Source of the DNA: an uncultured Nitrososphaerota archaeon
GTDB taxonomy: Archaea > Thermoproteota > Nitrososphaeria > Nitrososphaerales > CADDZS01
DNA length: 64,000 nucleotides
NCBI GenBank assembly: GCA_963799845.1
Contig: CAWCYI010000006.1
Coordinates: 512,001 to 576,000, forward strand
Direction of reading: 5' to 3'
A program made the position numbers and the translations under genes. Below are positions 38,637-57,471 of the stretch, piece after piece. The notes beneath the pieces were generated by a model. The model saw only the letters and a program-made list of their open reading frames with translations. It was not told where the DNA came from and ran no database searches. The stretch's first letter is position 1, and every line of letters starts with the position of its first letter.

Positions 38637-38796
38637 CCTAAACCTACAGTGTACGATTCCTCATGCAAGGAAAATCATCTTTTTGGTAAACGAGACATGA
38701 TATACGCATCGAAGAAAAAATCAAGTCGACATCCGTTTTGAAACCACCTTGAGTATTCGCCAATAATGAAAGAGACCAAGTTTTAGGGGGATGAGA

Positions 38797-39009
38797 TTAC
38801 TTTCTCTTTTCCTTAAGATAAGATTTTCCATAGAATGAAATGGTAAATTTGTCTCCGACTCTGAAGACATATCCCTTTGTTATTAGTTGACTGAGTGTTG
38901 AGCTACACTCTAGTTCAGAGAATTTTGTTAATTCGCTAATTCTTGGAAGCGTAGCACTACCATAAAGATCCAAGACTTTCAAGATTTCAAGCTCGGATTC
39001 AACGTCCAA
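38797..39009 (-). CDS. small winged-helix protein
   Basis: ELEILKVL..TLPRISEL..LSQLITKGYV..FTISFYGKSYL. Confidence 0.75.
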   Translation of the reverse strand: MDVESELEILKVLDLYGSATLPRISELTKFSELECSSTLSQLITKGYVFRVGDKFTISFYGKSYLKEKRK

Positions 39010-39060
39010 TTTTCATTCTGTTACGAATTATCCAGTCAGAAGATAACTCGTTGGATTACA

Positions 39061-39109
39061 AAGTTTCCGAAGTGGTAGGAAGTTTACGAATCATAACAAA
39101 GTTTACGAA
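39061..39109. repeat. three 11-bp direct repeats AAGTTT(C/A)CGAA at 19-bp spacing
   Basis: copies start at 39061, 39080 and 39099 in the wHTH/kaiC divergent gap. Confidence 0.8.
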
Positions 39110-39137
39110 GTAAGCCAATCTCTTAATACTCCAGATC

Positions 39138-40721
39138 TTGGTTCATTCATCTGAATTGCTTCATGGTTCACAGGCGGAATTAACTAAATCTCGTGAACAA
39201 GTTCCAACCGGCGTCGCTGGATTAGATGATTTGATCGAAGGAGGTCTGCCTGCTCGTAGCATGGTTGTTCTGGGAGGACGACCGGGCACGGGAAAGACCT
39301 TGTTAGCAGCGCGGTTCTTGTATGAAGGAGCAACCCATGATGAACCATCGGTTTATGTTTCATTTGCCGAGAGCAAAGCACAATTCCTGTCAAACATGGC
39401 AAAGTTTGGTTTTGATTTTCAAAAGTTAATTAATACTGGAAAGTTCGAATTTATAGATCTCACAACTGTAGCTGGAGAAGCTGTCTCTGAAGCTCTGGAC
39501 TTGATTCTAAGTCAGCTGACTGAGATGAGGGCAAAGAGGCTTGTCGTCGATTCGTTCACAGCTCTTGCTCAGGGGTTTGAAAAGGTGATAGACGCAAGGA
39601 TTGCGCTTCATGTCATTCTAGGAAGGCTTGTAAGGGAAGAAGGTTGTACCACATTGCTTCTGGTAGAGATGCCATTTGGAACAGACAAAATTGGTCTTGG
39701 TATTGAAGAGTTTGTCGCAGATGGTATTATCATGCTGGATTTCGTGAACCACAAAGGAGGACCCCAACGAACGATCAACATCAAGAAGATGCGCGGCACT
39801 CAAATCAGGCTGGATACCAGCACTTATTCGATTTCTTCGAAAGATAGTTTTCTAGTGTTCCCAGCTATCGAGCTGTCCATGAAGCAAGGTTTGGGAGACA
39901 GCAGAATTCCGACACACATTCCAGGATTTGATGAACTGATAGAGGGCGGTTTTCTCGAAAGGAGTGTCTCGGCGTTGACGGGCGTCGCGGGAACTGGAAA
40001 GACAACATTTGCACTGGAGTACATTTACAATGGAGCAAAAGACGAGGACGAGAAGGGGCTTTTCATCTCTTACGGAGAGTCGAAGGATCAGCTTGAAGTG
40101 ATCGCGCGGAAATTGAGCATGAATAAATTAGACGAGATGACTAAAGAGGGTCTCGTCACAATCGCCGGCATTATTCCGGAGAAAGCTTCAATCGAAGCGC
40201 ATGTGGTCGAAGTGCAAAGATTAATCTCCGAAACAAATGCAAAGAGAGTTGTTCTCGATGACGTAACTGGACTGCAGGCAATTTGCACAGACGACGAGTT
40301 TTACTTTTTGATGAAAAATCTAACACAGCTAGCAAAATCGAAGGGAGCGACTGTGTTGTTAACTCTCACGACGAATGAACTTGCAGGATTTTCAATTACG
40401 GGAAAGGGTCTTTCGACTGTTATGGATAACATCATTTTGATGCGATATGTTGAGGTCGAGGGTCGTATGGATAGATCGATGATTTTGCTAAAGATGCGCG
40501 GGACAATGCATGATAACACTATCAAGAAATTCAGCATACGCACGGGAGGAATTGTAATGGAAGGAAGCTTTGTAGGATACATTGGGATACTTTCCAGTTC
40601 TGCAAGAAAAAGCATCGAAAAGTTTGAAGAATCGGAAAGAGAAATAGCAAAACAAGAAAGTGATGCTAGATCAAAAAGAAGGCAAGCCTTCGACCAGAAA
40701 ATGAAAGACGAAGCCCATTAG
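39138..40721 (+). CDS. double-domain KaiC/RAD55 family ATPase
   Basis: two Walker A motifs (GRPGTGKT, GVAGTGKT), two KMRG motifs, LSTVMDNIILMRYVE. Confidence 0.93.
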   Translation: MVHSSELLHGSQAELTKSREQVPTGVAGLDDLIEGGLPARSMVVLGGRPGTGKTLLAARFLYEGATHDEPSVYVSFAESKAQFLSNMAKFGFDFQKLINTGKFEFIDLTTVAGEAVSEALDLILSQLTEMRAKRLVVDSFTALAQGFEKVIDARIALHVILGRLVREEGCTTLLLVEMPFGTDKIGLGIEEFVADGIIMLDFVNHKGGPQRTINIKKMRGTQIRLDTSTYSISSKDSFLVFPAIELSMKQGLGDSRIPTHIPGFDELIEGGFLERSVSALTGVAGTGKTTFALEYIYNGAKDEDEKGLFISYGESKDQLEVIARKLSMNKLDEMTKEGLVTIAGIIPEKASIEAHVVEVQRLISETNAKRVVLDDVTGLQAICTDDEFYFLMKNLTQLAKSKGATVLLTLTTNELAGFSITGKGLSTVMDNIILMRYVEVEGRMDRSMILLKMRGTMHDNTIKKFSIRTGGIVMEGSFVGYIGILSSSARKSIEKFEESEREIAKQESDARSKRRQAFDQKMKDEAH

Positions 40722-40860
40722 TTACCAAACCGCAGGAACTCGAAAGCCTGTCAGCATAACGCCACTCTCGGGGGCAAAAATTATAGAGAGCGATGCTTGT
40801 ACGGCAATCTAAGTGCGAGTCTAGACCGTTGGTGATTTAGCCGTTCAGGAATTTAGGGTA

Positions 40861-41172
40861 ATGTATTCCGAGGCGTTAACGTATGGATTTTTGGCTTTGG
40901 GTAGACAACTTGCAAATGTGGTGAGTGATTATCTGGCAAGAAAATACGATCTGACTCCGGTTGAAACATACAAGAATCCAAAACTGATCTATGAAGCCCT
41001 CGAGAAAAGCTTAGGATATGGCTCCATTATTATTGAGACGAGGATAATAAAATCCCTATATTCACAACTTTCTTTGCCTATGGAAGGCCAGCCAAGGATA
41101 CGAATGGGTCATCCTGAAGATTTCGAGAAATACGTCTTTGAGCTTCAAGCAAAAGTTCAAGGAAGCTCTTGA
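40861..41172 (+). CDS. KaiC-associated small protein (DUF3227-like)
   Basis: ALEKSLGYGSIIIETRIIKSLYSQL pattern; directly downstream of kaiC. Confidence 0.6.
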   Translation: MYSEALTYGFLALGRQLANVVSDYLARKYDLTPVETYKNPKLIYEALEKSLGYGSIIIETRIIKSLYSQLSLPMEGQPRIRMGHPEDFEKYVFELQAKVQGSS

Positions 41173-41239
41173 GATCTTGGCGAAGTCGCATTTCTACTCA
41201 ATGAGTATCAATAGGGCGTTTCTACGATGATGTAGCGTA

Positions 41240-41812
41240 TCAATTCCGTTTCGATCTTATAGCTATTATGGTGCAACCCAGCTGCGACACCTGCGTATCA
41301 GTCTGCATCTCCAGGAATGAAGATAGAATACCAGAGAGGTATTCTGACAAGAATATCGACCACTTCATTCCAAAAGAATGCCTAACGTTGATTTCAAGAT
41401 GGCCGTCATCTTCATCGATCAGTATGTTCGTCTCGCCGATGTTGGAATTAGATGATAGAGTTTCAAGAAAATCCATAACTGTCTCGAAGTTGATTTTTTG
41501 ATACCGAAATTTGAGAAAGTTATGTGCCGATACCAAAGATGAGCTTCTGGCAATTTCGATTAATCTATCTTCGCTCATCTCATCCAAAAAAGATGTGAAT
41601 ATTTCCCTATCAATTGTAAGAAATGATGTTCCTATGCCTATGTACTGGCCCCATTCAATGTGTCTACGAAGTATTTGGCTTACGAGGCTGCTCGGAGTAA
41701 TGCCGATCTTCTTAGCTTTGGTCGCTATCGCAGCATCCAAATTCTCCTCGATCTTGTACGCTCTGGTGACCTTCTTTCGTCCTTGTTTCAGACTTCCCTC
41801 GCGAAGTACCAA
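41240..41812 (-). CDS. ribbon-helix-helix regulator with C-terminal ligand-binding-like domain
   Basis: VTRAYKIEENL..GITPSSLVSQILRRH; HSFGMKWS. Confidence 0.7.
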   Translation of the reverse strand: MVLREGSLKQGRKKVTRAYKIEENLDAAIATKAKKIGITPSSLVSQILRRHIEWGQYIGIGTSFLTIDREIFTSFLDEMSEDRLIEIARSSSLVSAHNFLKFRYQKINFETVMDFLETLSSNSNIGETNILIDEDDGHLEINVRHSFGMKWSIFLSEYLSGILSSFLEMQTDTQVSQLGCTIIAIRSKRN

Positions 41813-42589: not shown

Positions 42590-43066
42590 TTACGCAACCG
42601 GCATTAGTACTCTGTCTATTGGGTAAATTACACCATTGCTGGCTTCGATGTTAGACTTTGTTACTTTTGCATCGTTTACAAACATGCTTTTCTGGATAGT
42701 TCCTTGCGTCTTGAGCGTGACTGAAGATCCTTGCATAGTCTGTACGCTTGGGGTCCTCTTGTCGCCTGTCAAATCGTGGAATTCATTCTCAGTGATCTTG
42801 TGGTCGATTATGTGGTAGGTGACGACGTTCCTCAATTTTGAGGGGTCCTTCATCCATCCGTCCACTGTTCCAGTCGGAAGACTTCTGAATGCATCATCTG
42901 TTGGAGCGAAGACTGTAAATGGTCCCTGACTGTTTAGTGTGTCTGCGAGTGCTGAAACCTCGATCGCCTGAACCAGTGTCTTAAAATCTTCATTTGATTT
43001 TGCTTGGTTTAGGATAGATCGCGACATCTGTTGCTCATTCATTGTGGTTGCTGTTGTGCTTGTCAT
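42590..43066 (-). CDS. fasciclin (FAS1) domain protein
   Basis: GPFTVFAPTDDAF, TYHII, NGVIYPIDRVL; likely ATG at 43066. Confidence 0.93.
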   Translation of the reverse strand: MTSTTATTMNEQQMSRSILNQAKSNEDFKTLVQAIEVSALADTLNSQGPFTVFAPTDDAFRSLPTGTVDGWMKDPSKLRNVVTYHIIDHKITENEFHDLTGDKRTPSVQTMQGSSVTLKTQGTIQKSMFVNDAKVTKSNIEASNGVIYPIDRVLMPVA

Positions 43067-43081
43067 TCGAATTTCACAGTA

Positions 43082-43107
43082 TGTAATAGGCATTACGTAC
43101 TATATAC
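43082..43107 (-). promoter_or_regulatory. TATA box plus GTAAT-N4-ATTAC palindrome upstream of fasciclin
   Basis: 26-bp GTATATAGTACGTAATGCCTATTACA, identical to 56699-56724. Confidence 0.7.
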
Positions 43108-43340
43108 GTCTATGTAATCGATGTATCAAAAGAAGTGCAAAGGAACCAGTGGCTTACCTAATTCGGAAAAATGAACTCCTGAATTAAGGTCTGTCAAGTT
43201 CCAATTTTGGGCTTTCTTCGAACTCAAGTTAGGAAAAGACATTGAACAAGGCGGGATCGATCCAGAGATTACTTCTGTTCGTGGATTACTCCCTCAAATT
43301 TATCAATAATCGGCACAGCAAAACTTTCTAGGCAGCTAGC

Positions 43341-44267
43341 ATGAATTTCACAACGCACGTTATGTTCGGAGTACTGTTGGCGGCCGTATTCTTTGGCAAG
43401 CCTGAGATAATCCTCCTAGTAGCGATTGGTTCGGCGATTCCAGACTTGGACAGAGAATACGGTTTTCTAAGCAAGGAAACCTTTCGCAACGCAGAGGTCC
43501 ATCGAGCTCTATTCCATAACTTCTTGTTTCTCGGATTGCTCTGTCTGATCAATCCATTCCTCGCTCTTGGCGCTTTTCTGCACACATTTCTTGATGCTCT
43601 GACGACGGCCAGAGATAGAGGCGTCGAATGGCTTTTTCCGTTTTCGAGGTTTGTCAAAAGAGCTGCATATGATAACGATGGGAATCGCTTGGATCTCGAT
43701 CCCAATGAGAAAATATACTTCCTTCAAAATGAGATACATATCTTGACAAAGAAGACCACAAAGGACTTGAAACCAAGTGGGCCTTTATTGCCGTGGCGCA
43801 GAACTTACGGTCCGGCATTGTCCGGACGGCTGCTTGATCTGGGTATCTTTGTGGGTTCTCTCGGACTTACGCTTTTGCTTCTTCTCTTTTCTGTTCTTGG
43901 TTTTCACCAGTTCATAGATTTGGCAATCCTTCCTTCTGGACCAGCCTTTTACCTTCCACTCTTGCTCGGCGCCGCCGGGATCATAGTGAACTTTGTCGGG
44001 GGAGAGATTGACAGAAAGAAGCTTGCTAAAAACTTCAAACCTGATCATCTTTACAAGTTCTTTTTTTACCTTTCAACCGGAGACATGATACTCGCAGTAG
44101 CCCTCGGGGCAATAATGAATCCCGAAATCGTGATCTCAACGATGAGAATGATCCCATATATTGCAGCTGGTGTTGCCCTTGTCTTTCTCGTCTCTTTCGT
44201 CATATTGAAAATTTATTCCGCAAAGCCTCTGCCACTGGACGAGACGAAGGAACCGACAATAATTTGA
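43341..44267 (+). CDS. membrane-bound metal-dependent hydrolase (YdjM-like)
   Basis: THVMFG, PDLD, HRALFH, HTFLD plus TM helices. Confidence 0.85.
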   Translation: MNFTTHVMFGVLLAAVFFGKPEIILLVAIGSAIPDLDREYGFLSKETFRNAEVHRALFHNFLFLGLLCLINPFLALGAFLHTFLDALTTARDRGVEWLFPFSRFVKRAAYDNDGNRLDLDPNEKIYFLQNEIHILTKKTTKDLKPSGPLLPWRRTYGPALSGRLLDLGIFVGSLGLTLLLLLFSVLGFHQFIDLAILPSGPAFYLPLLLGAAGIIVNFVGGEIDRKKLAKNFKPDHLYKFFFYLSTGDMILAVALGAIMNPEIVISTMRMIPYIAAGVALVFLVSFVILKIYSAKPLPLDETKEPTII

Positions 44268-44556: not shown

Positions 44557-44934
44557 ATGTTTCTAGAAGTCGTTAAACTGGTAGTGAATACCATCCTTAA
44601 TGGTGGAGTAAAAGACTCTAATGTTTCAGACCTATCCCTAGAAGTCAAAGAAAAAATGGGTACATATACCCTCGGCATTGGCTCAACGATAGTCCTAGAA
44701 TCCAAAAAGGTGCTAACGCCAAAAGAAAAAAGAAGAAAAAACCTGATCATATCGTTAATAATATCATTGATTTTCATGATTGGGCTCTCTACCATTGGTG
44801 CTTGGCTCCCGGACGCTCAGGCTGGTCTAGGGAGAACATTGATTTTACTGAGTGAAATACCAGCGTTTGCGTACAGTCTTATAAGCACGAGATTCTTGAT
44901 GAAAAAAGCATCGCGCCGTAAAGCTACCAACTGA
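44557..44934 (+). CDS. hypothetical two-TM protein, paralogue of 46863-47216
   Basis: shared LSLE.KE..G.Y.L.I.ST and NLII...ISL..GRTL..LSE.PA. Confidence 0.75.
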   Translation: MFLEVVKLVVNTILNGGVKDSNVSDLSLEVKEKMGTYTLGIGSTIVLESKKVLTPKEKRRKNLIISLIISLIFMIGLSTIGAWLPDAQAGLGRTLILLSEIPAFAYSLISTRFLMKKASRRKATN

Positions 44935-45044: not shown

Positions 45045-45527
45045 CTATTTGCCCGTTGCCGGAAAAGATGCAAAGTAATTTGAAGAGCTTTTCCGTCCGA
45101 TTGTCTCTATCACTTCGGTCCAGACCACGTCTCTCACGCCTCTCATGGCCTTCACATCTTCAAGCAGATTGAGCAAAACGCCGTTATCCTTTACGAAGAC
45201 TTCGACACGCAAATCGATTGTGTGTTCTCCGATTGTTCTTGCCGCGTACACTACCTCGTCACGCTTCAAAAGCTCCTTTCCGAGCTCAATTGTAGCGCCC
45301 CCTGTGGTATATATGAGAAGATCCACTCTCCTATATCCGAACTTCATCGGATCAAGCGCGTAAGTTTTTATGAGATAGTCAGACTCAAGTCTTTTCCGCG
45401 CTCTCTGAACAGTGCTCAAGGGGACTCCGAGTTCCAGAGAGATTTCATGCGTTGGCATTTTTCCTTCAGAGCCAAGCAGGAGCCGTAGAATCTTGCCATC
45501 TGTTTCTGAGAATTGCGAAATCATCAT
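45045..45527 (-). CDS. Lrp/AsnC family regulator (copy 1)
   Basis: HTH EISLELGVPLSTVQRARKRLE plus RAM-like domain. Confidence 0.9.
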   Translation of the reverse strand: MMISQFSETDGKILRLLLGSEGKMPTHEISLELGVPLSTVQRARKRLESDYLIKTYALDPMKFGYRRVDLLIYTTGGATIELGKELLKRDEVVYAARTIGEHTIDLRVEVFVKDNGVLLNLLEDVKAMRGVRDVVWTEVIETIGRKSSSNYFASFPATGK

Positions 45528-45550
45528 GAATTCTTACCTCTTTCAAACAT

Positions 45551-46048: not shown

Positions 46049-46354
46049 TTACTGGTTTGCTTGAACTTGTGAAGAAGTTTCTAGAGTTCCAACAAGCGTC
46101 ATCAAGTCCTCTTTGCTAGTCTTTAACGCGACTTTGTCTCCTATTCCCTGCACGTGCGTCACATCAATTGGAATATGCGTACTGCGGAAGACTTTCCTCA
46201 TCTCGAACTCTTTAGCCACGTCTCCATCAAGCTGGACATCCAAAGATCCAATCTTCCAAGTCTTTTCATCGAACATTACGTTCTTTACTGTCCCTATCAC
46301 CCAGCCATTTAGTCCAATCACTTCTTTGTCCATCAAGTCAAGTATGTTCATCAT
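46049..46354 (-). CDS. PRC-barrel domain protein
   Basis: DLMDKEVI..GWVIGTVKNVMFD..VQGIGDKV. Confidence 0.9.
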   Translation of the reverse strand: MMNILDLMDKEVIGLNGWVIGTVKNVMFDEKTWKIGSLDVQLDGDVAKEFEMRKVFRSTHIPIDVTHVQGIGDKVALKTSKEDLMTLVGTLETSSQVQANQ

Positions 46355-46486
46355 TTACCAAGCTCAGCCCTCAGTTGATCCTCGCTATCGGATAAGGCTT
46401 ACTCTCTTCCAATTTGTTCAGGACAAGTCTAGAACTGCTAACAAGCTAAAACGGATCTCCGGATGTCTTCTTGTCGGAGTGATCTG

Positions 46487-46771
46487 TCAAGAGACTTCCG
46501 AGGCTGCGAGCAGACCCATTAATTCTTCCTTGCTAACCTTCAGCGTAACCTTGTCTCCGATTCCTTGCACAATATTCACGTCTAATGGAATACGATAATT
46601 TCGAAAGACCTTCTTCATTTCAAATTCCCTTGCCACATTTTCATCAAGCTGGACATCAAGTGATCCAACTTCCCATGCTTTTTCATCAAACATTACATTC
46701 TTGATGGTCCCGATCAACGAACCATTCAATTCAACAATTTCTTTGCCCAACAAATCCATCATGTCCATCAT
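46487..46771 (-). CDS. PRC-barrel domain protein (tandem paralogue)
   Basis: DLLGKEIV..GSLIGTIKNVMFD..VQGIGDKV. Confidence 0.9.
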   Translation of the reverse strand: MMDMMDLLGKEIVELNGSLIGTIKNVMFDEKAWEVGSLDVQLDENVAREFEMKKVFRNYRIPLDVNIVQGIGDKVTLKVSKEELMGLLAASEVS

Positions 46772-46862: not shown

Positions 46863-47216
46863 TCAAGAAATGTTTCTAATTATGTACCGCGTGCTGATGA
46901 TGTTGACTAAAATCGCTGGGAATTCGCTCAAATAGACAAGCGTTCGACCAAAAACTGCATCTGGAAGTAAGGTTCCAACCACGGCCAGCGCAACCCAAAT
47001 GGACAGAGAGATGAAAAATACTATAATCAAATTCCTACTTCCCGTATATCTACGTACTAGTTCCCCTTTTGTTGCAACAAGCACTGTCGAGTTAATATCG
47101 AGAACGTACTTTCCATCGGTCTCCTTGAGTTCGAGAGACAAATTTGTAATCTCAGAGTCTGTAATTATGAGATGAAGCCAGAAGTTCAAAACCATTTTTG
47201 AGAGCCTTGCGAACAA
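46863..47216 (-). CDS. hypothetical two-TM protein, paralogue of 44557-44934
   Basis: see paralogue. Confidence 0.7.
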   Translation of the reverse strand: MFARLSKMVLNFWLHLIITDSEITNLSLELKETDGKYVLDINSTVLVATKGELVRRYTGSRNLIIVFFISLSIWVALAVVGTLLPDAVFGRTLVYLSEFPAILVNIISTRYIIRNIS

Positions 47217-47586: not shown

Positions 47587-47838
47587 ATGACAACAACAAC
47601 GCAAAAAGCAACGGAAACTATGGAGAACGTCGGCAAAAGTGTTCACCATCAGACGGAGAAACTAAACGATTCTTTGGACACTGTGAGAAAACAATTAGTT
47701 ACTTATGGGGACGAGATTCAAGAGTACCTAGGGAAAGTCGACGCTAAAGTCGATGCGTGGAAGTTTTCCATCGAGAAGCAAAATGAAGGACTTATCGTGG
47801 ACATCGCGTTCCGTGCGACGATACATCCGAAAAGGTAG
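47587..47838 (+). CDS. hypothetical protein, paralogue of 52429-52710
   Basis: shared Q.YL.KVDAK.D..KF..EK..EGL.VD..FRAT.HPK. Confidence 0.8.
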   Translation: MTTTTQKATETMENVGKSVHHQTEKLNDSLDTVRKQLVTYGDEIQEYLGKVDAKVDAWKFSIEKQNEGLIVDIAFRATIHPKR

Positions 47839-47888
47839 ACTGAATCATTTGCTGGGATTAACGGATAAACAAGAGAAGATAGAGTAGC

Positions 47889-48011
47889 ATGATATTCTCA
47901 TTAAGAAAGAAAAATAACAAGAGCGGGATCGGAACTCTAGGCGTCATAGTAGTTGTGGTGCTTGTAATAATCGTTCTCGCATGGTTCGGGTTCGGCGGAC
48001 TGCATCTCTAA
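47889..48011 (+). CDS. 40-aa class III signal-peptide micro-pilin-like protein (copy 1)
   Basis: MIFSLRKKNNKSG|IGTLGVIVVVVLVIIVLAWFGFGGLHL; paralogue at 53417-53539. Confidence 0.75.
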   Translation: MIFSLRKKNNKSGIGTLGVIVVVVLVIIVLAWFGFGGLHL

Positions 48012-48445: not shown

Positions 48446-49114
48446 ATGATATTCAACGGGCTTGAACAAATGACTAAGCATTTGCAGCTTTCCGAAGAAG
48501 ACAGGAAAATGTTAAAGCTTCTAGTTGATTCCGGGGGAAAAATATCATCGTTCGAAATATCTCAACAATTTGGAGTCTCATTGAGCACTGTTCAGCGGAG
48601 GCGGAAGAAACTCGAAGATACTTATTTCATAAGAACTTACTCGCTGGACCCCGTGAAGCTCGGATATCGAAGGATCGAGCTTCTGATATACACAGTAGGT
48701 GGCACTACGATCGATATCGGAATGGAACTTCTGAAGCGTGAAGAGGTGACTTCCGTATTCAGAACTTTGGGAGAGCATGCGATTGACCTACGCGTTGAAG
48801 TCTTCGTGAAGGATAATGCAGCTTTGCTCGATCTTCTTGACCAGGTAAGAGCTATGAAAGGAGTCAAGGATGTAATCTGGACTGAAATTTTCGAGCCCAT
48901 GGATATGACGAGTGCTACAAATCGTGTCTCCAGGGGGAATGAGGTAGAACCACGGCCTGCCAACCTAGCTAAGAGCGAATTGAAAACGTATGAGAGATAT
49001 GCGTCTATCGCCCTTCCTGAAATCCCTGCCCACTCGAACTTTGCACTAGATCTTCCTGAACGATCCACTGAGGAATTGAAAATTCTGGAAAGAATTAATG
49101 TAATCGGGCAATGA
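48446..49114 (+). CDS. Lrp/AsnC family regulator (copy 2) with C-terminal extension
   Basis: EISQQFGVSLSTVQRRRKKLE; RTLGEHAIDLRVE. Confidence 0.9.
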   Translation: MIFNGLEQMTKHLQLSEEDRKMLKLLVDSGGKISSFEISQQFGVSLSTVQRRRKKLEDTYFIRTYSLDPVKLGYRRIELLIYTVGGTTIDIGMELLKREEVTSVFRTLGEHAIDLRVEVFVKDNAALLDLLDQVRAMKGVKDVIWTEIFEPMDMTSATNRVSRGNEVEPRPANLAKSELKTYERYASIALPEIPAHSNFALDLPERSTEELKILERINVIGQ

Positions 49115-49413: not shown

Positions 49414-50025
49414 ATGGCAACAATAAATCAGCAGATGTCAGATATACTAGATACAGCAAAGTCAATTGGTGACTTCAAAATGCTTATGCGAGTAGTAGAG
49501 GGAGCAGGTCTTGCAGACACTCTAAAGAGTCAGGGCCCTTTCACAGTGTTCGCTCCTACAGACGAAGCATTCAGGAATCTTCCAACTGGAGAATTGGATG
49601 AATGGTTGAGAGATCCTTCAAAGTTGAGGAGCATAGTCACCTATCACATCGTTGATCGCAAGATCGATGAGAATGAATTTCACAGGTTGACTGCAGATAG
49701 GAGAACCCCAAGTGTAATGACGATGCAAGGATCATCAGTCGTGATCAAGACCCATGGGACCCTATCAAAAACAATGTTCGTAAACGATGCGAAAGTAATC
49801 AAGTCTGACATTCTAACCACTAATGGTGTAATTTACATCATTGACAGAGTACTCGAGCCTGCGCCTGCAGCTCAAGCGCCTATGACCGCAGCTCCACAAA
49901 CAAAGAGTGAAGCCACGGCTCCGACTCCAGAAACCGCCACTCCGGCTCCTCAAACCACAACTCGAAACGAGTCGACGACAACTACTACGACTACAACAAC
50001 GAATCCTCCAAATCCGACCTCCTGA
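49414..50025 (+). CDS. fasciclin domain protein with P/T-rich tail
   Basis: GPFTVFAPTDEAF, NGVIYIIDRVL, poly-Thr tail. Confidence 0.92.
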   Translation: MATINQQMSDILDTAKSIGDFKMLMRVVEGAGLADTLKSQGPFTVFAPTDEAFRNLPTGELDEWLRDPSKLRSIVTYHIVDRKIDENEFHRLTADRRTPSVMTMQGSSVVIKTHGTLSKTMFVNDAKVIKSDILTTNGVIYIIDRVLEPAPAAQAPMTAAPQTKSEATAPTPETATPAPQTTTRNESTTTTTTTTTNPPNPTS

Positions 50026-50393
50026 TTTAACTCATGAGCGCGGCCTCAAAGGAGTGTATTTGCACTCCTTTGGACTAGAGGCCCAACATCACTTCACTCC
50101 TGAGATACAACTTCTGTCTGCTGGGACCCAGAATTGACGCCTGAAAAACCAAGTTCACTTTTGCAATCGTGGAAATATCAGAAAAAAGAGGGGAGGTACT
50201 TCAAACAAATACCTCCGATGGAAATCAAGTACTTTAGCCTTAGATTCTCTTTCTAGCCTTCCCGACCTCTTTCTGCACCCTACCCCTGACTTGCTCCATC
50301 TTTCCTTTTACTTGTTGGCTCTTGTTATTCGTAATTTTTCCAACCGCTTCGCGGGCCTTTCCCTTAGTATTCTCTCTTTCGCCTTCTCTGATT

Positions 50394-51433
50394 TGTCTCT
50401 TTTCCGACAATTATTTCGCAAGCTGGTAAACAGGAGTAGACTGGGAGAGTTTTGGAAGAGCGTAACAAAGCGTTACGAGAAACATGTGCCCGCGAAGTCT
50501 TGATAGCGACAAGATCAGTTACCTCTTCAGAGCTAGAGAAAGGGGCGAGACCTGCGCAAACATTGCTCTCCAGCTCGGGGTGTCAAAGAGGAGGGTTGAG
50601 CAGATACTTGCCCAGCATAGGAAAGGTGGGGGTGTGCCTCTCCTCCTCAAGAAACCAGGAAGGAAAAGCATTCCAATTACCGACGAGGAAACTTCACTCG
50701 TCATTGATGCTTATCAGAGATATAGGGCAAACGCCCTCTACCTTGAACGAAAGATCGAGTGCGATAGCAAGATTCACATCAACCACAACAGGATACACAG
50801 GGTGCTCCTGATGAACTCCTTTGCGTCAAACTCTAGGAAGAAGTGGATAAGGAGGAAGTGGGTCAGATACGAGAGGGAGCACTCGAATTCATTATGGCAT
50901 ACGGACTGGCACGAGGTAAAGGATCCGAGGTGGAAGGGCAAGTGGCTCACCTGCTATGAGGATGATGCTTCTCGTCTCATTACCGGATTTGGGGTCCATG
51001 AAACGCTGACCTCGGAGTACTCTGTTTCCTGTCTTGAGAGCGCCATGAAGGAACACGGCAAACCTGCATCGATCCTATCCGACCACGGAACCACATTTTA
51101 CACGATGGAATCTGAGAGGAGGGAGAAGGGGATGACAGAATTCGAGAGGTGTCTCTTGAAGCACAAGATAAGATTCATCCTCGGAAGAGTCAACCACCCC
51201 CAGACGAACGGCAAGATCGAGAAGTTCTTCGACATATTCGAGAGTAAGATCAAGTGGTTCTCCTCGATAGATGAGTTCATGAAGTGGTACAATGAAGTGA
51301 GGCCTCATGGAGCCCTTGACCTCAAGACGCCAACCCAGGCTTACTACGAGAAGATGCCGCAGTTAGATGCTCTTGAATATCCTTTGTCTATGGAGGTCTC
51401 CTGACAGATGCGAAATGATTTCTGGAAAAAACA
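50394..51433 (+). mobile_element. IS481-family insertion sequence with 12-bp target duplication
   Basis: TGT...ACA ends, imperfect TIRs, CCTTCTCTGATT at 50382-50393 and 51434-51445. Confidence 0.9.
50484..51404 (+). CDS. IS481-family (rve) transposase
   Basis: HTH, WHTD, DDASR, SDHG, PQTNGKIEKF, YNEVRPH. Confidence 0.93.
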   Translation: MCPRSLDSDKISYLFRARERGETCANIALQLGVSKRRVEQILAQHRKGGGVPLLLKKPGRKSIPITDEETSLVIDAYQRYRANALYLERKIECDSKIHINHNRIHRVLLMNSFASNSRKKWIRRKWVRYEREHSNSLWHTDWHEVKDPRWKGKWLTCYEDDASRLITGFGVHETLTSEYSVSCLESAMKEHGKPASILSDHGTTFYTMESERREKGMTEFERCLLKHKIRFILGRVNHPQTNGKIEKFFDIFESKIKWFSSIDEFMKWYNEVRPHGALDLKTPTQAYYEKMPQLDALEYPLSMEVS

Positions 51434-51655
51434 CCTTCTCTGATTTGTTTAGACATTATGGAATCATTGAGAGTTCAGCGCAAGTGAGTATTAATGGGAT
51501 TTCGCCAGCATTGTGATTCAAATGCGCTTTCTTAGTCATTCTGGAGACGCTTAATGACCTTTGCTTCAAGCTTTAGGGCATTTGCTGGGCGATTCGTTAT
51601 CATAGCACGAGAGCAGTTTACACACCAAGGAAATGAAAGAGAAAGGTAAATTGAC

Positions 51656-52072
51656 ATGAGCACAGCCCCAGAAGATCTAAAGAACATACTTGGACCAAAC
51701 GAGCAGGTACAGATCTATATCAAGCAGAAATTTTATCATCCAAAGATCAATATCGACTCGGTCGTCATAACAAACGAAAGAATAATTCTGAGACATCCCC
51801 ATGCCCTCACACTGAAAAAAGATTATACTGATTTCAATTATCAAGATATTTCAAACGTCGTGTTGAACAAGGGAATCATTAGATCAACTGTAAATTGCAC
51901 ACTTCGATTCGGCGGAGATGCGTTATCGCTAGCTTCCTTGCGCAATTCGGAGGCAGAGAAGGCCTATGGTTTAATCAGAGAGAATCTCGTCCGATACCAG
52001 TCGCCACTCACTGCACGATCAGAGGGAGTCCCTTCTCTCCAGGCCGTGCCAGGAACAACTCCCCGAACGTGA
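51656..52072 (+). CDS. prokaryotic PH-domain protein
   Basis: LGPNEQV..VVITNERII..DFNYQDISNV..GII. Confidence 0.75.
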   Translation: MSTAPEDLKNILGPNEQVQIYIKQKFYHPKINIDSVVITNERIILRHPHALTLKKDYTDFNYQDISNVVLNKGIIRSTVNCTLRFGGDALSLASLRNSEAEKAYGLIRENLVRYQSPLTARSEGVPSLQAVPGTTPRT

Positions 52073-52428: not shown

Positions 52429-52710
52429 ATGACAACCTTGGTTACAGACAATGAAGTAGAGCCGGAAAGAAGTTCCGGCGATTCGGCGGGTCAATCAGAG
52501 GACTCTGAACCTAAGGTCGGTCTGAAGCAGCACCTCTCAAACTACAGTAATCAGGTTCAAGATTACCTAGACAAGGTTGACGCGAAAATTGACGGATTCA
52601 AGTTCACGTTAGAGAAACACGGCGAAGGACTCACGGTAGATCTTTCATTCAGGGCAACATTACACCCAAAAAATGCAAAGACCGCTGAGAAAACTGAGAA
52701 AGAAGTCTGA
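52429..52710 (+). CDS. hypothetical protein, paralogue of 47587-47838
   Basis: see paralogue. Confidence 0.8.
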   Translation: MTTLVTDNEVEPERSSGDSAGQSEDSEPKVGLKQHLSNYSNQVQDYLDKVDAKIDGFKFTLEKHGEGLTVDLSFRATLHPKNAKTAEKTEKEV

Positions 52711-52943: not shown

Positions 52944-53273
52944 TCAGACGATGAAGCCAATGATTATGCCTATTACAAGGCCGATACTAAGAGGTATGAT
53001 CCCAAGGAAGATGGCCACGTAGGTCGCCGCAACCGGTCCATAAGTGGTTATTAGATTTTTTACTCCTGATTCGAGGCTGGCGAGGCTGACAAAGCCGAAG
53101 TAAGACGCCACGAGTGCGACGACGATCAGTATTATCGCGATCATTAGTGCTTTCCTGATAAAGTACCCTATGATTATTCCAATGATTAGAGGGATTGCCA
53201 TCACAACAAGTGAAGGAATTCCCCCGCCAAAGGTTCCACCTATTAAGTGAAAAATGTCATTGATTAGTGTCAA
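52944..53273 (-). CDS. small Gly-rich membrane protein, FUN14-like
   Basis: GIIIGYFIRKALMIA..YFGFV pattern; three hydrophobic segments. Confidence 0.6.
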   Translation of the reverse strand: MTLINDIFHLIGGTFGGGIPSLVVMAIPLIIGIIIGYFIRKALMIAIILIVVALVASYFGFVSLASLESGVKNLITTYGPVAATYVAIFLGIIPLSIGLVIGIIIGFIV

Positions 53274-53416
53274 AGCTATCTACTTCCACTCGATTCCCGT
53301 TGATTGCTAGTCTGCCTTCTCATCGTATAACGTTTTCTCGCGGGTCTAATCAGTGATTTCCCTAGTTGGGTTTTTGTTAATTGTTTCCTTACCATGTTAC
53401 ATTCACTCTTCAAGGA

Positions 53417-53539
53417 TCAAAGGTGCAGGCCAGCGAAGCCGAAGTACGCAAGAACGATGATTACAACGACGGCAATTATTATGACTTCGAGAGACCCCAT
53501 CCCAGACTTGCTATTATTTTTCTTCAATAAGAATCTCAT
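53417..53539 (-). CDS. 40-aa class III signal-peptide micro-pilin-like protein (copy 2)
   Basis: MRFLLKKNNSKSG|MGSLEVIIIAVVVIIVLAYFGFAGLHL. Confidence 0.75.
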   Translation of the reverse strand: MRFLLKKNNSKSGMGSLEVIIIAVVVIIVLAYFGFAGLHL

Positions 53540-54057: not shown

Positions 54058-54285
54058 ATGAAATCATCACGAAAAGACGCAATAACTCAAATCTTCGAGA
54101 TGGAAATGCCAACTGAAGCGCGGACCAGTAAATTTGTCGAAACTGGATCTCTCGGATTACTTCTTTCAACTGATACTGTGTACCGCACATGCTTCAATTG
54201 TCAGGGTCATCCTAGCTATCCAGAGATACCTCCTTCGACGTTACACCGTGGTCAAGAATGTCTGATATGTGGAATCAGACAATAA
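54058..54285 (+). CDS. small CxxC-CxxC protein
   Basis: GAGGAG upstream of the ATG; CFNC...CLIC. Confidence 0.5.
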   Translation: MKSSRKDAITQIFEMEMPTEARTSKFVETGSLGLLLSTDTVYRTCFNCQGHPSYPEIPPSTLHRGQECLICGIRQ

Positions 54286-54566: not shown

Positions 54567-54659
54567 TTTCACCTACCTTCCAACTATTTCGTCAACCCGT
54601 TTCAAATGCGCGGAATTTACGCGGACAATTCTCAACAGACTCATCGTCGTCTCCATAAT

Positions 54660-55497: not shown

Positions 55498-55690
55498 GAT
55501 GGATCTATTGCTATCGTTACTAGCCTGGCGTTTTAGGTCAATATCAATATGAAAGCGAATCGTTCAATTTGTTAGGCAATATTGGAGAAAGCCTTCACAT
55601 GGCATGACGCATTGACCAGAATGACCTCATTTGCACAATAATTTGCCTTATTTGCTCACAAATTACTCGTTGAAGCATGATTGAGGCAAA

Positions 55691-55711: not shown

Positions 55712-55783
55712 ACTATGAGAGACATGACAGTAATAAGATAGAATTAGAAAAGCACATATCTAATAAAACCCTTTCTGCAATCC

Positions 55784-56266
55784 ATGCCACTTTCTCAGCT
55801 CTCGGACCTTGATAGGCAAATTTTGAGACTCCTTGTAGAATCCGAGGGAAATATTCCGACTCACGAGATCTCGCAAGAGCTACGCATTCCACTGAGTACT
55901 GTACAAAGAAGACGAAAGAGACTTGAAGAAAACTATCTGATTCGGTATTATTCGCTTAATCTCCAAATGTTTGGATGGAGACGGATCGATCTCCTCATCG
56001 CCACAGAAGGCGGCGCTACCATTACTGTCGGAAAGGAACTATTAAAGCGAGATGAGGTAATTTTCGCGGCGAGAACAATTGGAGAGCATACAATAGACCT
56101 AAGAGTCGAGACACTCGTAAAAGACAACGGGGAATTACTCGATCTCTTAGAAGAAGTGAAGGCGATGAATGGAGTAAAAGACGTTGTTTGGACGGAGATA
56201 GTGGAGACGATAGGCCGAAAGAATCCGCCAAATGATTTTTCACGCTATTGGAAGAATCCGGAATAG
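55784..56266 (+). CDS. Lrp/AsnC family regulator (copy 3)
   Basis: EISQELRIPLSTVQRRRKRLE; RTIGEHTIDLRVE. Confidence 0.9.
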   Translation: MPLSQLSDLDRQILRLLVESEGNIPTHEISQELRIPLSTVQRRRKRLEENYLIRYYSLNLQMFGWRRIDLLIATEGGATITVGKELLKRDEVIFAARTIGEHTIDLRVETLVKDNGELLDLLEEVKAMNGVKDVVWTEIVETIGRKNPPNDFSRYWKNPE

Positions 56267-56690
56267 TAGCTTCCTAAGTTTCGAATCGATCAAAATTCAG
56301 CTTAAAGAGCAGGGTTTATTCTTCGTGTCAACAATTACCCAGAAGAAAATTTCCAACTGTCACTTCTTTCGAATTTCCTACTCAAATGGAAAGGAAAGAT
56401 GGGTTGCCTTCGACCCGCTCAAGGGACCGAAGTTGGCTGTTTCAGAGATGAAAAGGCTTGTACAAAAATCAGATTCCGAAGCAGGAACAAAACAACCAGG
56501 CGTTGTTTGGTATATGGGGAAATTAGCTTTGTGGAAGGTGTAATTGCTCTCAAACAGTCTTGGTCATTGTAAAGGCGAATCCGAATTAAACCTAAGACTC
56601 CTCTAGATTTACTGATTCCAACACAGATAGTACTCAGCTAAAATTAGGTCAGAAAATGATCTTAAACTGGTAACAGGCAGTGCTAGTTCA

Positions 56691-56742
56691 ACATAGGTGT
56701 ATATAGTACGTAATGCCTATTACAACTAGTGAAAATTGCATG
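56691..56742 (+). promoter_or_regulatory. copy of the fasciclin promoter and start codon, with no fasciclin gene
   Basis: 26-bp identity to 43082-43107 and the same 41-bp distance to an ATGACAA start. Confidence 0.7.
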
Positions 56743-56867
56743 ACAAAACAGCAACGGAATAAGCCTTCAGCAAGGCAGAATAATTTTGATAACTTTCCTA
56801 GTCGCAAACCGATTACCTATCGTGTAAAGCAGGTAGTTTGAATGATTTAGATGGATTGTGAAAGTGC

Positions 56868-57305
56868 ATGAATCTATTTCATAGGTCTAGACAGGAGACT
56901 GCAAAAGTACAGACAAGTAATGCTGTCCAGATGGGCATCTCGCCTTTGAAGAATCTCGTCATAAGCGATCCAAAGATGTTCGCTGCATTGCAGAATTTTC
57001 TGATCGTTGATCCGGAAAGACAAATACCGCTGCTCGACAGTGTCAGCACACTCCTAGCGAAGGGGGACGCAGCCAAAGCACAAGGAAACAGAATGACTGC
57101 TCGCGCAGATTACGAGATTGCCGCAAAGATTGAGATCTACAGACAAAACAAGGACAGCGCAAGGACATTTCTGGTATTAGCTGAAGGAGTCTCTGACAAA
57201 GGACAGCCTCACCACGAATATCAAGAAACAATGCTAGCTAATATGGACAAAGTCATGCGGATTTCGAATGAGTTCCAAGATTTTGTGCCCCATCAATTAA
57301 AGTGA
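56868..57305 (+). CDS. hypothetical helical protein
   Basis: 145-aa ORF. Confidence 0.7.
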   Translation: MNLFHRSRQETAKVQTSNAVQMGISPLKNLVISDPKMFAALQNFLIVDPERQIPLLDSVSTLLAKGDAAKAQGNRMTARADYEIAAKIEIYRQNKDSARTFLVLAEGVSDKGQPHHEYQETMLANMDKVMRISNEFQDFVPHQLK

Positions 57306-57336
57306 AAAAGCACTGACGGAATCAGCACTCGACAAC

Positions 57337-57471
57337 ATGCCCGATCCAAAGAAGAGTCGGGAACAAAAGGAAACGAAACGCGAAGAAATGAATGAAGAGG
57401 TTCACGATATTGAGGACACTGAGGAAGAGAAATTGTATGAAGAAGACTGGAACTCGGATGAGTCTGATTGA
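57337..57471 (+). CDS. 44-aa highly acidic microprotein
   Basis: MPDPKKSREQKETKREEMNEEVHDIEDTEEEKLYEEDWNSDESD*. Confidence 0.5.
   Translation: MPDPKKSREQKETKREEMNEEVHDIEDTEEEKLYEEDWNSDESD

What the first reader, a model, noticed from the sequence alone, without database searches (positions are those of the whole stretch)
38700..57471. tRNA-Thr-adjacent island: candidate KaiC/Lrp-controlled general-stress and adhesion regulon built from paralogue pairs
Seen in the sequence: directly after tRNA-Thr(TGT), gene density drops and many families occur in multiple copies. There are three Lrp/AsnC genes, two fasciclins, two PRC barrels, two micro-pilins and two pairs of unknown proteins. Single-copy genes include KaiC with a DUF3227-like partner, csbD, SPFH, PH-domain, FUN14-like and zinc microproteins. 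Established: CsbD is a sigma-B general-stress protein in Bacillus, and KaiC-like ATPases are proposed archaeal signalling hubs. Inference: this is a coordinated stress, dormancy or surface-attachment programme in an organism without sigma factors, wired through Lrp paralogues and shared promoters. I do not recognise this combination as a described system.
Basis: partly seen in the sequence, partly recalled or inferred. Interest (0 to 1): 0.78.

Follow-up and report, generated by a model that had tools for sequence, protein, structure and literature searches.

The report
Small-gene stress patchwork after tRNA-Thr
This stretch of a soil ammonia-oxidising archaeon's genome is a patchwork of duplicated small stress-type genes and regulators rather than one switchable programme, but two of its genes share a distinctive promoter with chaperone genes elsewhere in the genome.

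Summary
An intron-split tRNA-Thr(UGU) is followed by 18.8 kb of low coding density (0.64 against 0.82-0.85) holding KaiC, three Lrp/AsnC-like genes, two fasciclins, two PRC barrels, CsbD, SPFH, bPH and paralogous small unknowns. "DUF3227-like" and "FUN14-like" got no Pfam hit. The island is not one regulon. It is a mosaic of modules that are conserved separately in relatives, and across 67 further Nitrososphaerales Lrp loci the island families rarely or never recur. One shared cis-element is real: a ~45-nt promoter (TATA box plus GTAAT-N4-ATTAC) upstream of Fas1 and u145. The same element precedes Hsp20, a thermosome paralogue, an HTH_45 regulator and hemerythrin-like genes in this genome, and thermosome genes in relatives and in two other families. 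Two island genes therefore belong to a dispersed chaperone-type regulon. Within the family its distribution matches the expanded Lrp subfamily (12 of 13 genomes concordant), but distant operator-bearing genomes lack that Lrp, so the regulator is unresolved. No RNA data were available.

The parts
38528..38636 (+). tRNA-Thr(UGU) with a 34-nt non-canonical intron (38556-38589) between the D-arm and the anticodon stem
   Evidence: Rfam RF00005 29.3 bits. Sequence read. The spliced 75-nt sequence folds into a cloverleaf with loop CUUGUAA. The gene is conserved after the saccharopine dehydrogenase gene across the family.
38797..39009 (-). 70-aa winged-helix protein (wHTH70), divergent from KaiC
   Evidence: Weak TrmB-type HTH hit. 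81% identical orthologue beside KaiC in G003.
39061..39109 (.). three direct repeats AAGTTT(A/C)CGAA, 19 nt apart, in the wHTH70-KaiC intergenic region; candidate operator
   Evidence: 3 of the 12 genome-wide copies lie here, and only 1 exact copy is kept in G003.
39138..40721 (+). two-domain KaiC-like ATPase (527 aa)
   Evidence: Pfam PF06745 334 bits with 2 stretches. NCBIfam KaiC 329 bits, below the 408 cut-off. Walker A GTGKT occurs twice.
40861..41172 (+). u103, 103-aa unknown, conserved downstream of KaiC
   Evidence: Orthologues next to KaiC in G005 (41%) and L127 (46%). No Pfam hit at E<=5.
41240..41812 (-). u190, 190-aa unknown whose N-terminus looks like a DNA-binding motif (by eye), conserved with KaiC-u103
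   Evidence: Only sub-threshold HTH/SeqA_N hits.
42590..43093 (-). Fas1, single FAS1-domain protein; the true start is probably the ATG at 43066
   Evidence: Pfam Fasciclin 128.8 bits. No N-terminal hydrophobic segment. Start inferred from the promoter layout.
43061..43118 (-). chaperone-type promoter/operator copy 1 (TATATAGTACGTAATGCCTATTACA) upstream of Fas1
   Evidence: the repeat finder I3, nhmmer, model R1 63.6 bits.
43341..44267 (+). YdjM-family membrane protein
   Evidence: Pfam YdjM 49.3 bits. 79% orthologue between an Lrp gene and a PRC gene in G010.
44557..44934 (+). u125p, membrane protein, paralogue of u117
   Evidence: 40% identity to u117. Hydrophobic segment at residue 63.
45045..45527 (-). 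Lrp1, Lrp/AsnC-like regulator
   Evidence: Pfam HTH_24 26.7 bits, RAM 19.4 bits (below 25). Member of a 12-copy subfamily.
46049..46771 (-). tandem PRC-barrel genes PRC1 (46049-46354) and PRC2 (46487-46771)
   Evidence: Pfam PRC 31.5 and 36.9 bits. Direct repeat D1 at 73%.
46863..47216 (-). u117, paralogue of u125p
47587..48011 (+). u83 (83 aa, amphipathic-helix type) followed by micro1 (40-aa TM protein, 47889-48011)
   Evidence: The u83 promoter resembles a degenerate operator copy by eye.
48446..49114 (+). Lrp2, Lrp/AsnC-like regulator with a C-terminal extension
49414..50025 (+). Fas2, FAS1-domain protein with a Thr/Pro-rich tail
   Evidence: Pfam 121.8 bits. 70% identical to Fas1.
50240..50395 (-). 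csbD, 3' part, cut off from its own start codon and promoter, which now lie at about 51435-51460
   Evidence: Pfam CsbD 49.5 bits. Empty-site alignment with G003 and a 13-bp target duplication CTTCTCTGATTTG.
50396..51434 (+). IS481-type insertion sequence (transposase 50484-51404), multi-copy
   Evidence: rve. IS481 is the best NCBIfam match, 156.7 bits, below its cut-off. At least 7 copies of >=95% aa identity on contig C6. About 10-fold depth and contig breaks at both ends in soil contigs. Absent from G003.
51656..52072 (+). bacterial-type PH domain protein
   Evidence: Pfam bPH_3 48.9 bits. 95% orthologue in G003.
52429..52710 (+). u93, paralogue of u83
52944..53539 (-). u109 (multi-TM, 52944-53273) and micro2 (40-aa TM, 53417-53539)
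54058..54285 (+). u75, CxxC...CxxC small protein with 7 paralogue hits in the genome
54510..55546 (-). ~1-kb G000-specific insertion carrying an SPFH/Band_7 gene. The assembly has one extra base at 54814; without it the ORF is an intact 278 aa
   Evidence: Pfam Band_7 119.6 bits. Gap in G003:C336. Soil contig lacks the base. Corrected reading is 87% identical to the C4 paralogue.
55784..56266 (+). Lrp3, Lrp/AsnC-like regulator
   Evidence: 97% orthologue in G003.
56684..56745 (+). chaperone-type promoter/operator copy 2
   Evidence: 62.2 bits
56740..57305 (+). short basic leader ORF (56740-56841) and u145 (56868-57305), a TPR-like all-alpha protein
   Evidence: AF2 pLDDT 84.9. VIA best Z 9.0 to TPR domains, not decisive.
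57337..57471 (+). 44-aa acidic ORF, status uncertain

Best explanation
The region is a genus-level variable stretch downstream of tRNA-Thr in a soil Nitrososphaerales genome. It has filled with duplicated small genes of stress type and one-component regulators, and the genome holds several such regions. It is a mosaic of at least four modules, each with its own regulator gene. (a) wHTH70 (or an Lrp in relatives), divergent from KaiC-u103-u190. (b) Lrp-YdjM-PRC. (c) csbD-bPH-u93-u109-micro2-u75. (d) Lrp3-[promoter]-leader ORF-u145. The Fas/Lrp/u125-family trio is duplicated in mirror image around the PRC pair. Only Fas1 and u145 are wired into a demonstrable shared circuit. Each sits behind a ~45-nt promoter in which a TATA box is followed by the palindrome GTAAT-N4-ATTAC, about 37 nt ahead of the start codon. 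Elsewhere the same promoter drives Hsp20, one thermosome paralogue, an HTH_45 regulator, two hemerythrin-like genes and a second u145 paralogue. Inferred mechanism: a dimeric DNA-binding protein occupies the palindrome between the TATA box and the transcription start, repressing these genes until proteotoxic or energy stress releases it. The regulator is not identified. Shown: gene content, module synteny, IS disruption of csbD, and the element and the genes it precedes. Inferred: promoter function, repression, and stress induction.
For: Content and density. Module synteny: G003:C336 keeps csbD-bPH-u93-u109-micro2-u75-Lrp3-u145 without the IS or SPFH; G005:C58 has Lrp-KaiC-u103-u190; G010:C200 has Lrp-YdjM-PRC; L127 has u190-u103-KaiC divergent from an Lrp. 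The tRNA-Thr left flank is conserved in the family, but the downstream content differs: an integrase in G001 (unpublished genome), acc/PHA genes in G009 and other genes in G010. Other G000 loci show the same style, with coding 0.42-0.63 and PRC, Lrp, CsbD, Usp, DUF892, Hsp20, ice-binding and TreT-like genes. Element: 10 sites in G000 at E 4e-17 to 2e-12. Downstream genes were identified by Pfam as HSP20, Cpn60_TCP1, HTH_45 and Hemerythrin. In relatives, of 17 sites, 7 precede thermosome, 2 fasciclin, 2 u145-family genes, 3 a ~45-52-aa micro-ORF and 3 other or unclear. The core also precedes the closest thermosome orthologues in G039, G030 and G051, which belong to other families. The half-sites stay fixed while the 4-nt spacer varies. 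The exact palindrome occurs 9 times in the genome, 6 of them in these sites. Background: duplication accounts for 77% of gene gains in Thaumarchaeota, and transcription families are expanded more than 10-fold in Nitrososphaerales (PMC7603488, passages read).
Against: No expression data: no RNA run holds the sequence, so neither promoter activity nor stress induction is shown. The element could be a strong constitutive promoter shared by abundant proteins. Only 3 of 30 sampled thermosome loci across the order carry it, so it belongs to one paralogue with a patchy distribution, not to thermosome genes in general. My gene calls use a home-made caller, so small ORFs may be wrong. Relatives are fragmented MAGs (58-96% complete), so absences are weak evidence. 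The enrichment of island families around Lrp paralogues leaves room for more shared regulation than I could detect by motif.
Confidence: 0.68

Rival explanations
1. One reading: the whole island is one coordinated stress, dormancy or adhesion programme controlled through KaiC and the Lrp paralogues.
For: An Lrp gene is divergent from KaiC in G005 and L127. 4 of 7 Lrp loci outside the island have another island-family paralogue within 6 kb, against a random mean of 0.49. Intergenic regions are long. One shared promoter exists.
Against: Only 2 of about 26 genes carry the shared promoter. The modules separate in relatives. In 67 new Lrp loci each island family occurs at 0-2 loci, and the commonest neighbour there is a receiver-like protein (24 of 67, recognised by eye). 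csbD is IS-disrupted, and SPFH is a late insertion. Neither fasciclin has a signal peptide.
Confidence: 0.12
2. The expanded Lrp subfamily is the protein that binds the GTAAT-N4-ATTAC operator, so the island's Lrp genes are local regulators of the chaperone-type regulon.
For: In the 13 family genomes, element and Lrp subfamily are both present in 6, both missing in 6, and the element stands alone in 1. My own hypergeometric arithmetic gives 7/1716 = 0.004, overstated because kin are not independent; one of the 6 positives is the unpublished G001. Lrp3 lies 0.4 kb upstream of operator copy 2, and the same Lrp-u103b-operator layout precedes a thermosome gene in G005:C184. 2 of 7 operator sites outside the island lie within 6 kb of an Lrp gene (P=0.007). 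The recognition helix is conserved in about 10 of 12 paralogues. In other families, two-RAM-domain proteins carry a weaker operator.
Against: G039, G030 and G051 have the operator before a thermosome gene but no Lrp-subfamily member: 0 of 5 genomes at E<=1e-10. Co-variation may only reflect a shared accessory gene pool. No binding data exist.
Confidence: 0.2
3. The region is a horizontally acquired mobile genomic island integrated at tRNA-Thr.
For: It abuts a tRNA. GC is lower, 0.42-0.46 against 0.47-0.49. Content downstream of this tRNA differs between genera, and in G001 (unpublished genome) a tyrosine integrase follows the same tRNA.
Against: No integrase and no repeat of the tRNA 3' end within the region. 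Both ends are shared with G003 at 84-88% DNA identity. Most families have paralogues elsewhere in the genome. Low GC goes with low coding density.
Confidence: 0.1
4. It is a defence island.
For: tRNA-adjacent variable regions often hold defence genes, and a KaiC-like P-loop ATPase is present.
Against: PADLOC gave only generic HTH or P-loop matches, none for the other proteins.
Confidence: 0.03

Closest known systems
Phr / HSR1-type heat-shock regulons of Euryarchaeota (recalled from memory; PMC10746257 seen only in a search listing)
   Same: A palindromic site next to the TATA box is shared by hsp20 and chaperone genes, and a small winged-helix gene carries the same site, as an autoregulated repressor would.
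   Different: The motif sequence differs, no Phr homologue was sought, and the lineage is a mesophilic soil Nitrososphaerales. The set also includes fasciclin, TPR-like and hemerythrin-like genes. Inducibility is untested.
Bacillus sigma-B general stress regulon
   Same: Many small proteins of stress type (CsbD, amphipathic-helix proteins, bPH, SPFH, Usp, DUF892) are encoded by the genome.
   Different: Archaea have no sigma factor. No common promoter was found for most of the genes, and the island's csbD copy is split by an IS.
Duplication-driven genome expansion in Nitrososphaerales (PMC7603488, passages read)
   Same: Paralogue-rich content, expanded transcription-factor families, lineage-specific gain and loss, and a large genome (4.6 Mb).
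   Different: In the passages read, that paper does not describe this locus, the Lrp subfamily or the promoter element. Its supplementary tables were not opened.
tRNA-linked genomic islands
   Same: Position directly after a tRNA gene, variable content among relatives, and an integrase at the same tRNA in one relative.
   Different: No integrase and no att repeat here. The content is paralogous to the rest of the genome and is shared with the nearest relative.
Archaeal Lrp/FFRP local regulators (LrpA, LysM, Ss-LrpB; recalled)
   Same: HTH plus RAM architecture, genes placed beside candidate targets, and tandem a/b pairs that suggest hetero-oligomers.
   Different: NCBIfam scores are far below every equivalog cut-off. 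There are 12 paralogues, and both ligand and DNA site are unknown.

Membership tests
KaiC (PF06745) | two RecA-like P-loop domains, each with a Walker A motif | tested here: met
   334 bits against a cut-off of 26.6, 2 stretches. GTGKT occurs twice in the translation.
circadian-clock KaiC equivalog (NF006799) | score above NCBI's equivalog cut-off | tested here: not met
   329.1 bits against a cut-off of 408
Lrp/AsnC | N-terminal HTH | tested here: met
   HTH_24 at 26.7, 28.4 and 32.6 bits against a cut-off of 21.9
Lrp/AsnC | C-terminal RAM (AsnC_trans_reg) domain | tested here: inconclusive
   19.4, 24.3 and 21.4 bits against a cut-off of 25. The hits sit in the right position, and LrpA aligns over the full length at E 1e-5 to 5e-9.
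CsbD (PF05532) | CsbD domain above cut-off | tested here: met
   49.5 bits against a cut-off of 40
CsbD (PF05532) | intact gene with its own start and promoter | tested here: not met
   The IS with a 13-bp target duplication lies within the first codons, and the native ATG is on the far side of the IS.
Fasciclin / FAS1 adhesion proteins | FAS1 domain | tested here: met
   128.8 and 121.8 bits against a cut-off of 22
Fasciclin / FAS1 adhesion proteins | export signal or membrane anchor, as expected of a surface adhesin | tested here: not met
   Maximum Kyte-Doolittle(15) in the first 45 aa is 0.17 (Fas1) and 0.95 (Fas2), with no TM segment anywhere. This is a simple hydropathy check; no signal-peptide predictor was run.
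PRC barrel (PF05239) | domain above cut-off | tested here: met
   31.5 and 36.9 bits against a cut-off of 21.2
SPFH / Band_7 | domain above cut-off plus an N-terminal membrane segment | tested here: met
   119.6 bits. KD 3.21 at residue 3. Intact at 278 aa once the read-supported base is removed.
   No family at E<=5 for u103. HMMER filters drop most very weak matches.
   No family at E<=5 for u109
   micro2 hits Flp1_like at 20.7 bits against a cut-off of 33.5, and micro1 gets no such hit. At 40 aa there is no globular part.
IS481 family insertion sequence | DDE (rve) transposase, multiple copies, target-site duplication | tested here: met
   rve 40.4 bits. IS481 is the best NCBIfam match but below cut-off, 156.7 against 224. 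At least 7 near-identical copies. 13-bp duplication. About 10-fold depth.
tRNA-integrated mobile island | integrase and a direct repeat of the tRNA 3' end | tested here: not met
   No tyrosine or serine recombinase among the ORFs. No repeat of the tRNA 3' half downstream.
archaeal operator-controlled heat-shock regulon | one conserved site beside the TATA box shared by chaperone genes | tested here: met
   Found before Hsp20 and a thermosome paralogue in G000, before 7 thermosome genes in relatives, and before thermosome genes in 3 genomes of two other families.
archaeal operator-controlled heat-shock regulon | induction by heat or another stress, and a cognate regulator | not testable with these tools
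   No RNA run holds the sequence, and no DNA-protein binding tool is available.
anti-phage defence systems (PADLOC) | match to a system-specific component | tested here: inconclusive
   Only generic HTH or P-loop matches (mad8, MkoB, Csa3-type HTH), none to other island proteins.

The most novel reading that the evidence does not exclude
A subset of soil Nitrososphaerales carries an undescribed, accessory chaperone regulon defined by a ~45-nt promoter with a GTAAT-N4-ATTAC operator. It couples a dedicated thermosome paralogue and Hsp20 to cytoplasmic fasciclin-domain, TPR-like (u145) and hemerythrin-like proteins. Within the family it travels with a 12-fold expanded Lrp subfamily whose members, possibly as hetero-oligomers sensing different metabolites, tune the regulon locally. 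This would give a sigma-less archaeon a modular stress response.
Probability: 0.3. Interest if true: 0.65.

Novelty: new variant of a known kind. Interest (0 to 1): 0.45.

Why it matters
How ammonia-oxidising archaea regulate stress responses is poorly known. In three literature searches I found no described heat-shock or general-stress cis-element for them. A sharply defined promoter/operator shared by chaperone genes and by unknown small proteins would give a testable entry point. It predicts regulon members (fasciclin, u145, hemerythrin-like proteins), candidate regulators (Lrp subfamily, HTH_45) and a simple assay. The island itself is an instance of the duplication-driven, regulator-rich genome expansion already described for Nitrososphaerales, so it is ordinary as an island.

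Tried and rejected
Expression: the look-up of sequencing runs listed no RNA holder, so co-expression was not tested. The DNA contigs served only for structure.

Defence island: PADLOC gave nothing specific.

Mobile island: no att repeat and no integrase. The G009-type right flank (acc/PHA genes) lies on another contig of G000, so this is not a simple insertion.

HTH_45 as a co-varying regulator: the family occurs in 13 of 13 genomes, so its distribution is uninformative.

'Same DNA site, different ligand' pattern among the Lrp paralogues: not seen. Mean pairwise identity is 0.65 for the HTH and 0.74 for the RAM domain.

Operator as an order-wide thermosome feature: rejected, 3 of 30 loci.

ESM Atlas for u145 and u83: only low-scoring leads.

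Foldseek on PDB for u145: no match at E<=0.001. VIA gave TPR-like matches with best Z 9.0, below the level that is decisive for helical repeats.

Earlier findings of this scan: none for this genome.

No systematic de novo motif discovery (MEME-type) was run on all island promoters. I inspected them by eye and searched with one profile, so weaker shared motifs could have been missed.

A literature search on Lrp/KaiC expansion failed on a disallowed character and was not repeated.

Full report
OBSERVATION. The window is G000:C6:512001-576000 of a 4.6-Mb, 9-contig assembly (86.7% complete, 4.9% contamination). Related records returned by the search for related loci are Nitrososphaerales MAGs. ARAGORN found no tRNA, and Rfam gave one marginal hit at 38571-38636 (29.3 bits). 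Reading the sequence shows a tRNA-Thr(UGU) split by a 34-nt intron between the D-arm and the anticodon stem: exons 38528-38555 and 38590-38636. The spliced 75 nt folds into a cloverleaf. A codon-usage gene caller that I trained on long ORFs of this genome gives a coding fraction of 0.64 and a median gene of 125 aa for 38700-57471. The left flank gives 0.82 and 221 aa, and the right flank 0.85 and 335 aa. GC is 0.42-0.46 against 0.47-0.49.

Pfam confirms KaiC (334 bits), two fasciclins, two PRC barrels, CsbD, Band_7/SPFH, bPH_3 and YdjM. It also shows three Lrp/AsnC-like proteins whose HTH is above the cut-off and whose RAM domain is just below. The paralogue pairs are real: Fas1/Fas2 at 70%, PRC1/PRC2 at 64%, u125p/u117 at 40%, u83/u93 at 54%, and two 40-aa TM proteins. 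u103 ('DUF3227-like') and u109 ('FUN14-like') have no Pfam match at E<=5. One micro-TM protein has a sub-threshold Flp1_like hit.

An rve transposase at 50484-51404 belongs to a multi-copy IS. Its best NCBIfam match is IS481, below the cut-off, and contig C6 alone holds at least 7 copies of >=95% aa identity. Soil-metagenome contigs break at 50395/50396 and 51433-51435 and show about 10-fold depth there. Aligning the empty site with the syntenic G003 contig shows a 13-bp target duplication. It also shows that the IS lies within the first codons of csbD, so the native ATG and promoter are now at about 51435-51460. The same contigs lack one base at 54814. Without that base SPFH is an intact 278-aa protein, 87% identical to a paralogue, so its apparent frameshift is probably an assembly indel. 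SPFH is itself a ~1-kb insertion (54510-55546) that G003:C336 lacks.

IS IT AN ISLAND? The left flank up to tRNA-Thr is conserved in the family. Downstream, only G003 (same genus, 84-88% DNA identity) shares the content. G003:C141 has tRNA-wHTH70-KaiC, and G003:C336 has csbD-bPH-u93-u109-micro2-u75-Lrp3-u145. G009 has acetyl-CoA carboxylase and PHA genes after the tRNA, and G010 has other genes. G001 has a tyrosine integrase there; G001 is an unpublished genome, so this point rests on it. G000 has no integrase and no repeat of the tRNA 3' end. The position is therefore a variable hotspot, but this content is not a recent mobile insertion.

IS IT ONE REGULON? Within G000 the Lrp genes belong to a 12-copy subfamily of 57-78% identity. 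Outside the island, 4 of 7 Lrp loci have another island-family paralogue within 6 kb, against a random mean of 0.49 (P=0.0007). Examples are C4:768-771 kb (Lrp x2, PRC-like, u145-like, CsbD) and C8:67-71 kb (Lrp, wHTH70-like, CsbD). Six such loci have the same low density (0.42-0.63) and also hold Usp, DUF892, an ice-binding protein, a TreT-like glycosyltransferase, stand-alone RAM proteins, Hsp20 and HTH_45.

In relatives the modules occur separately: Lrp-KaiC-u103-u190 in G005:C58 and L127, Lrp-YdjM-PRC in G010:C200, and csbD-Lrp in G005:C59. Beyond the family I examined 79 Lrp loci from Nitrososphaerales MAGs, 67 of them new. In those 67, KaiC occurs at 2 loci and u103, u190, YdjM, CsbD, bPH and SPFH at 1 each. 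Fasciclin, PRC, u145, u83 and u125 occur at none (tblastn, weak for small proteins). Unbiased clustering of neighbours found a receiver-like 146-aa protein at 24 of 67 loci, recognised by eye and not run through Pfam, and no island family. The combination is lineage-specific.

THE SHARED PROMOTER. Repeat I3 links the regions upstream of Fas1 and of u145. A profile of it finds 10 sites in G000. All share the layout (G)ACATAG-N3-TATATA-N4-GTAAT-N4-ATTACA, with a start codon about 37 nt after the TATA box. The genes downstream are Hsp20, a thermosome paralogue (behind a short basic ORF), an HTH_45 winged-helix gene, two hemerythrin-like genes, u145 and a u145 paralogue, Fas1, a fasciclin fragment, and one unclear site.

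In the family, sites were found in G005 (6), G012 (4), G003 (3), G001 (2, unpublished), G002 (1) and G010 (1). None was found in G004, G006, G007, G008, G009 or G011. Of these 17 sites, 7 precede thermosome genes, 2 fasciclin, 2 u145-family genes, 3 a ~45-52-aa micro-ORF and 3 other or unclear. In other families the core TATATAGTxCGTAAT-N4-ATTAC precedes a thermosome gene in G039, G030 and G051, and weaker versions precede two-RAM-domain proteins. Across 30 best-hit thermosome loci of the order, however, only 3 have it (G000, G039, G030). These are the closest orthologues at 74-78% identity, so the element belongs to one thermosome paralogue with a patchy distribution. Fixed half-sites with a variable spacer, placed between the TATA box and the start, suggest the site of a dimeric regulator. 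This is an inference.

WHO BINDS IT? Within the family the Lrp subfamily and the element co-occur: both present in 6 genomes, neither in 6, element only in G002. Lrp3 lies 0.4 kb upstream of operator copy 2, and the same layout precedes a thermosome gene in G005:C184. Against this, G039, G030 and G051 have the operator but no Lrp-subfamily member: 0 of 5 genomes at E<=1e-10. HTH_45 carries the operator on its own gene but occurs in all 13 genomes. The regulator is unresolved.

OTHER POINTS. Neither fasciclin has an N-terminal hydrophobic segment, so a surface-adhesion role is not supported. Under this promoter they look like cytoplasmic stress proteins of unknown function. The u145 family has 48 homologues; those carrying a source name are from Nitrososphaerales or Thaumarchaeota, and none has a Pfam domain. 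It folds confidently (pLDDT 84.9) into an all-alpha TPR-like repeat. Foldseek found nothing at E<=0.001, and the best VIA match is Z 9.0 (rmsd 3.1, 85 aligned), which is not decisive for helical repeats. PADLOC found no defence system.

LITERATURE. Three searches returned no paper describing a stress cis-element or this gene combination in ammonia-oxidising archaea. A fourth search found no paper mentioning fasciclin among the 10 listed. PMC13674081 (passages read) reports up-regulation of an Hsp20 and higher thermosome transcript abundance in Nitrososphaera viennensis treated with the nitrification inhibitor DMPP. PMC7603488 (passages read) shows that duplication dominates gene gain in Thaumarchaeota and that transcription families are expanded more than 10-fold in Nitrososphaerales.

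VERDICT. The region is an ordinary duplication-built accessory patch. It did lead to a conserved chaperone-type promoter that appears to be undescribed and that recruits two of its genes.

Noticed in passing
window 31645-31776 (-): A second tRNA-like gene whose ends nearly match those of the tRNA-Thr, apparently interrupted by intron sequence. Neither ARAGORN nor Rfam found it. The same pair of fragments lies upstream of the amidohydrolase gene in relatives.
   Followed up: partly
window 36852-38103 (+): Saccharopine dehydrogenase is split into two overlapping frames in G000 but reads in one frame in G006. Because soil contigs reveal single-base indels elsewhere in this assembly (50498, 54814, 56298), this is probably also an assembly indel and not a pseudogene.
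   Followed up: partly
window 56740-56841; G000 C6:~1188883-1189005; L080 (G010:C202): A short, very basic ORF (33-46 aa) starts at the predicted transcription start behind many operator copies, ahead of the main gene (thermosome or u145). The u145 leader and the G010 thermosome leader share an RQxxNNF...RKP..Y.V pattern. It may be a leader peptide or a 5' UTR element.
   Followed up: no
operator sites, G000 and relatives: Two operator classes: GTAA(T/C)-N4-ATTAC before thermosome, Hsp20, Fas and u145, and GACAC-ACCy-ATTAC before HTH_45, a u145 paralogue and a ~45-52-aa MATT...RERISRLGS micro-ORF.
   Followed up: no
window 42590-50025: Mirror-image arrangement around the PRC1-PRC2 tandem: Lrp1, u125p and Fas1 on the left, u117, Lrp2 and Fas2 on the right. 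Orientations are consistent, and DNA identity is 70-74% in repeats I1 and I2. This suggests an old inverted segmental duplication.
   Followed up: partly
window 29574-31493: A phage-type metallopeptidase domain protein and a DDE_Tnp_1 transposase lie in the left flank, so mobile DNA is common around this locus.
   Followed up: no
G000 genome-wide: Five thermosome genes at 69-71% identity to one another's N-terminal 462 aa, against 1-4 matches in the other genomes sampled, and a genome far larger than those of its relatives. Either real duplication-driven expansion or some strain merging in the assembly.
   Followed up: no
G000 C8:66325-67128 (L199:4325-5128): An ice-binding-like protein (Pfam Ice_binding, 218.7 bits) sits beside an Lrp paralogue and a CsbD gene.
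   Followed up: no
window 56232-56543 (+); L016, L019: A conserved ~72-aa ORF (u103b) follows Lrp3-type genes in G000, G003 and G005. Its start is unclear, and the assembly has an indel at 56298.
   Followed up: partly
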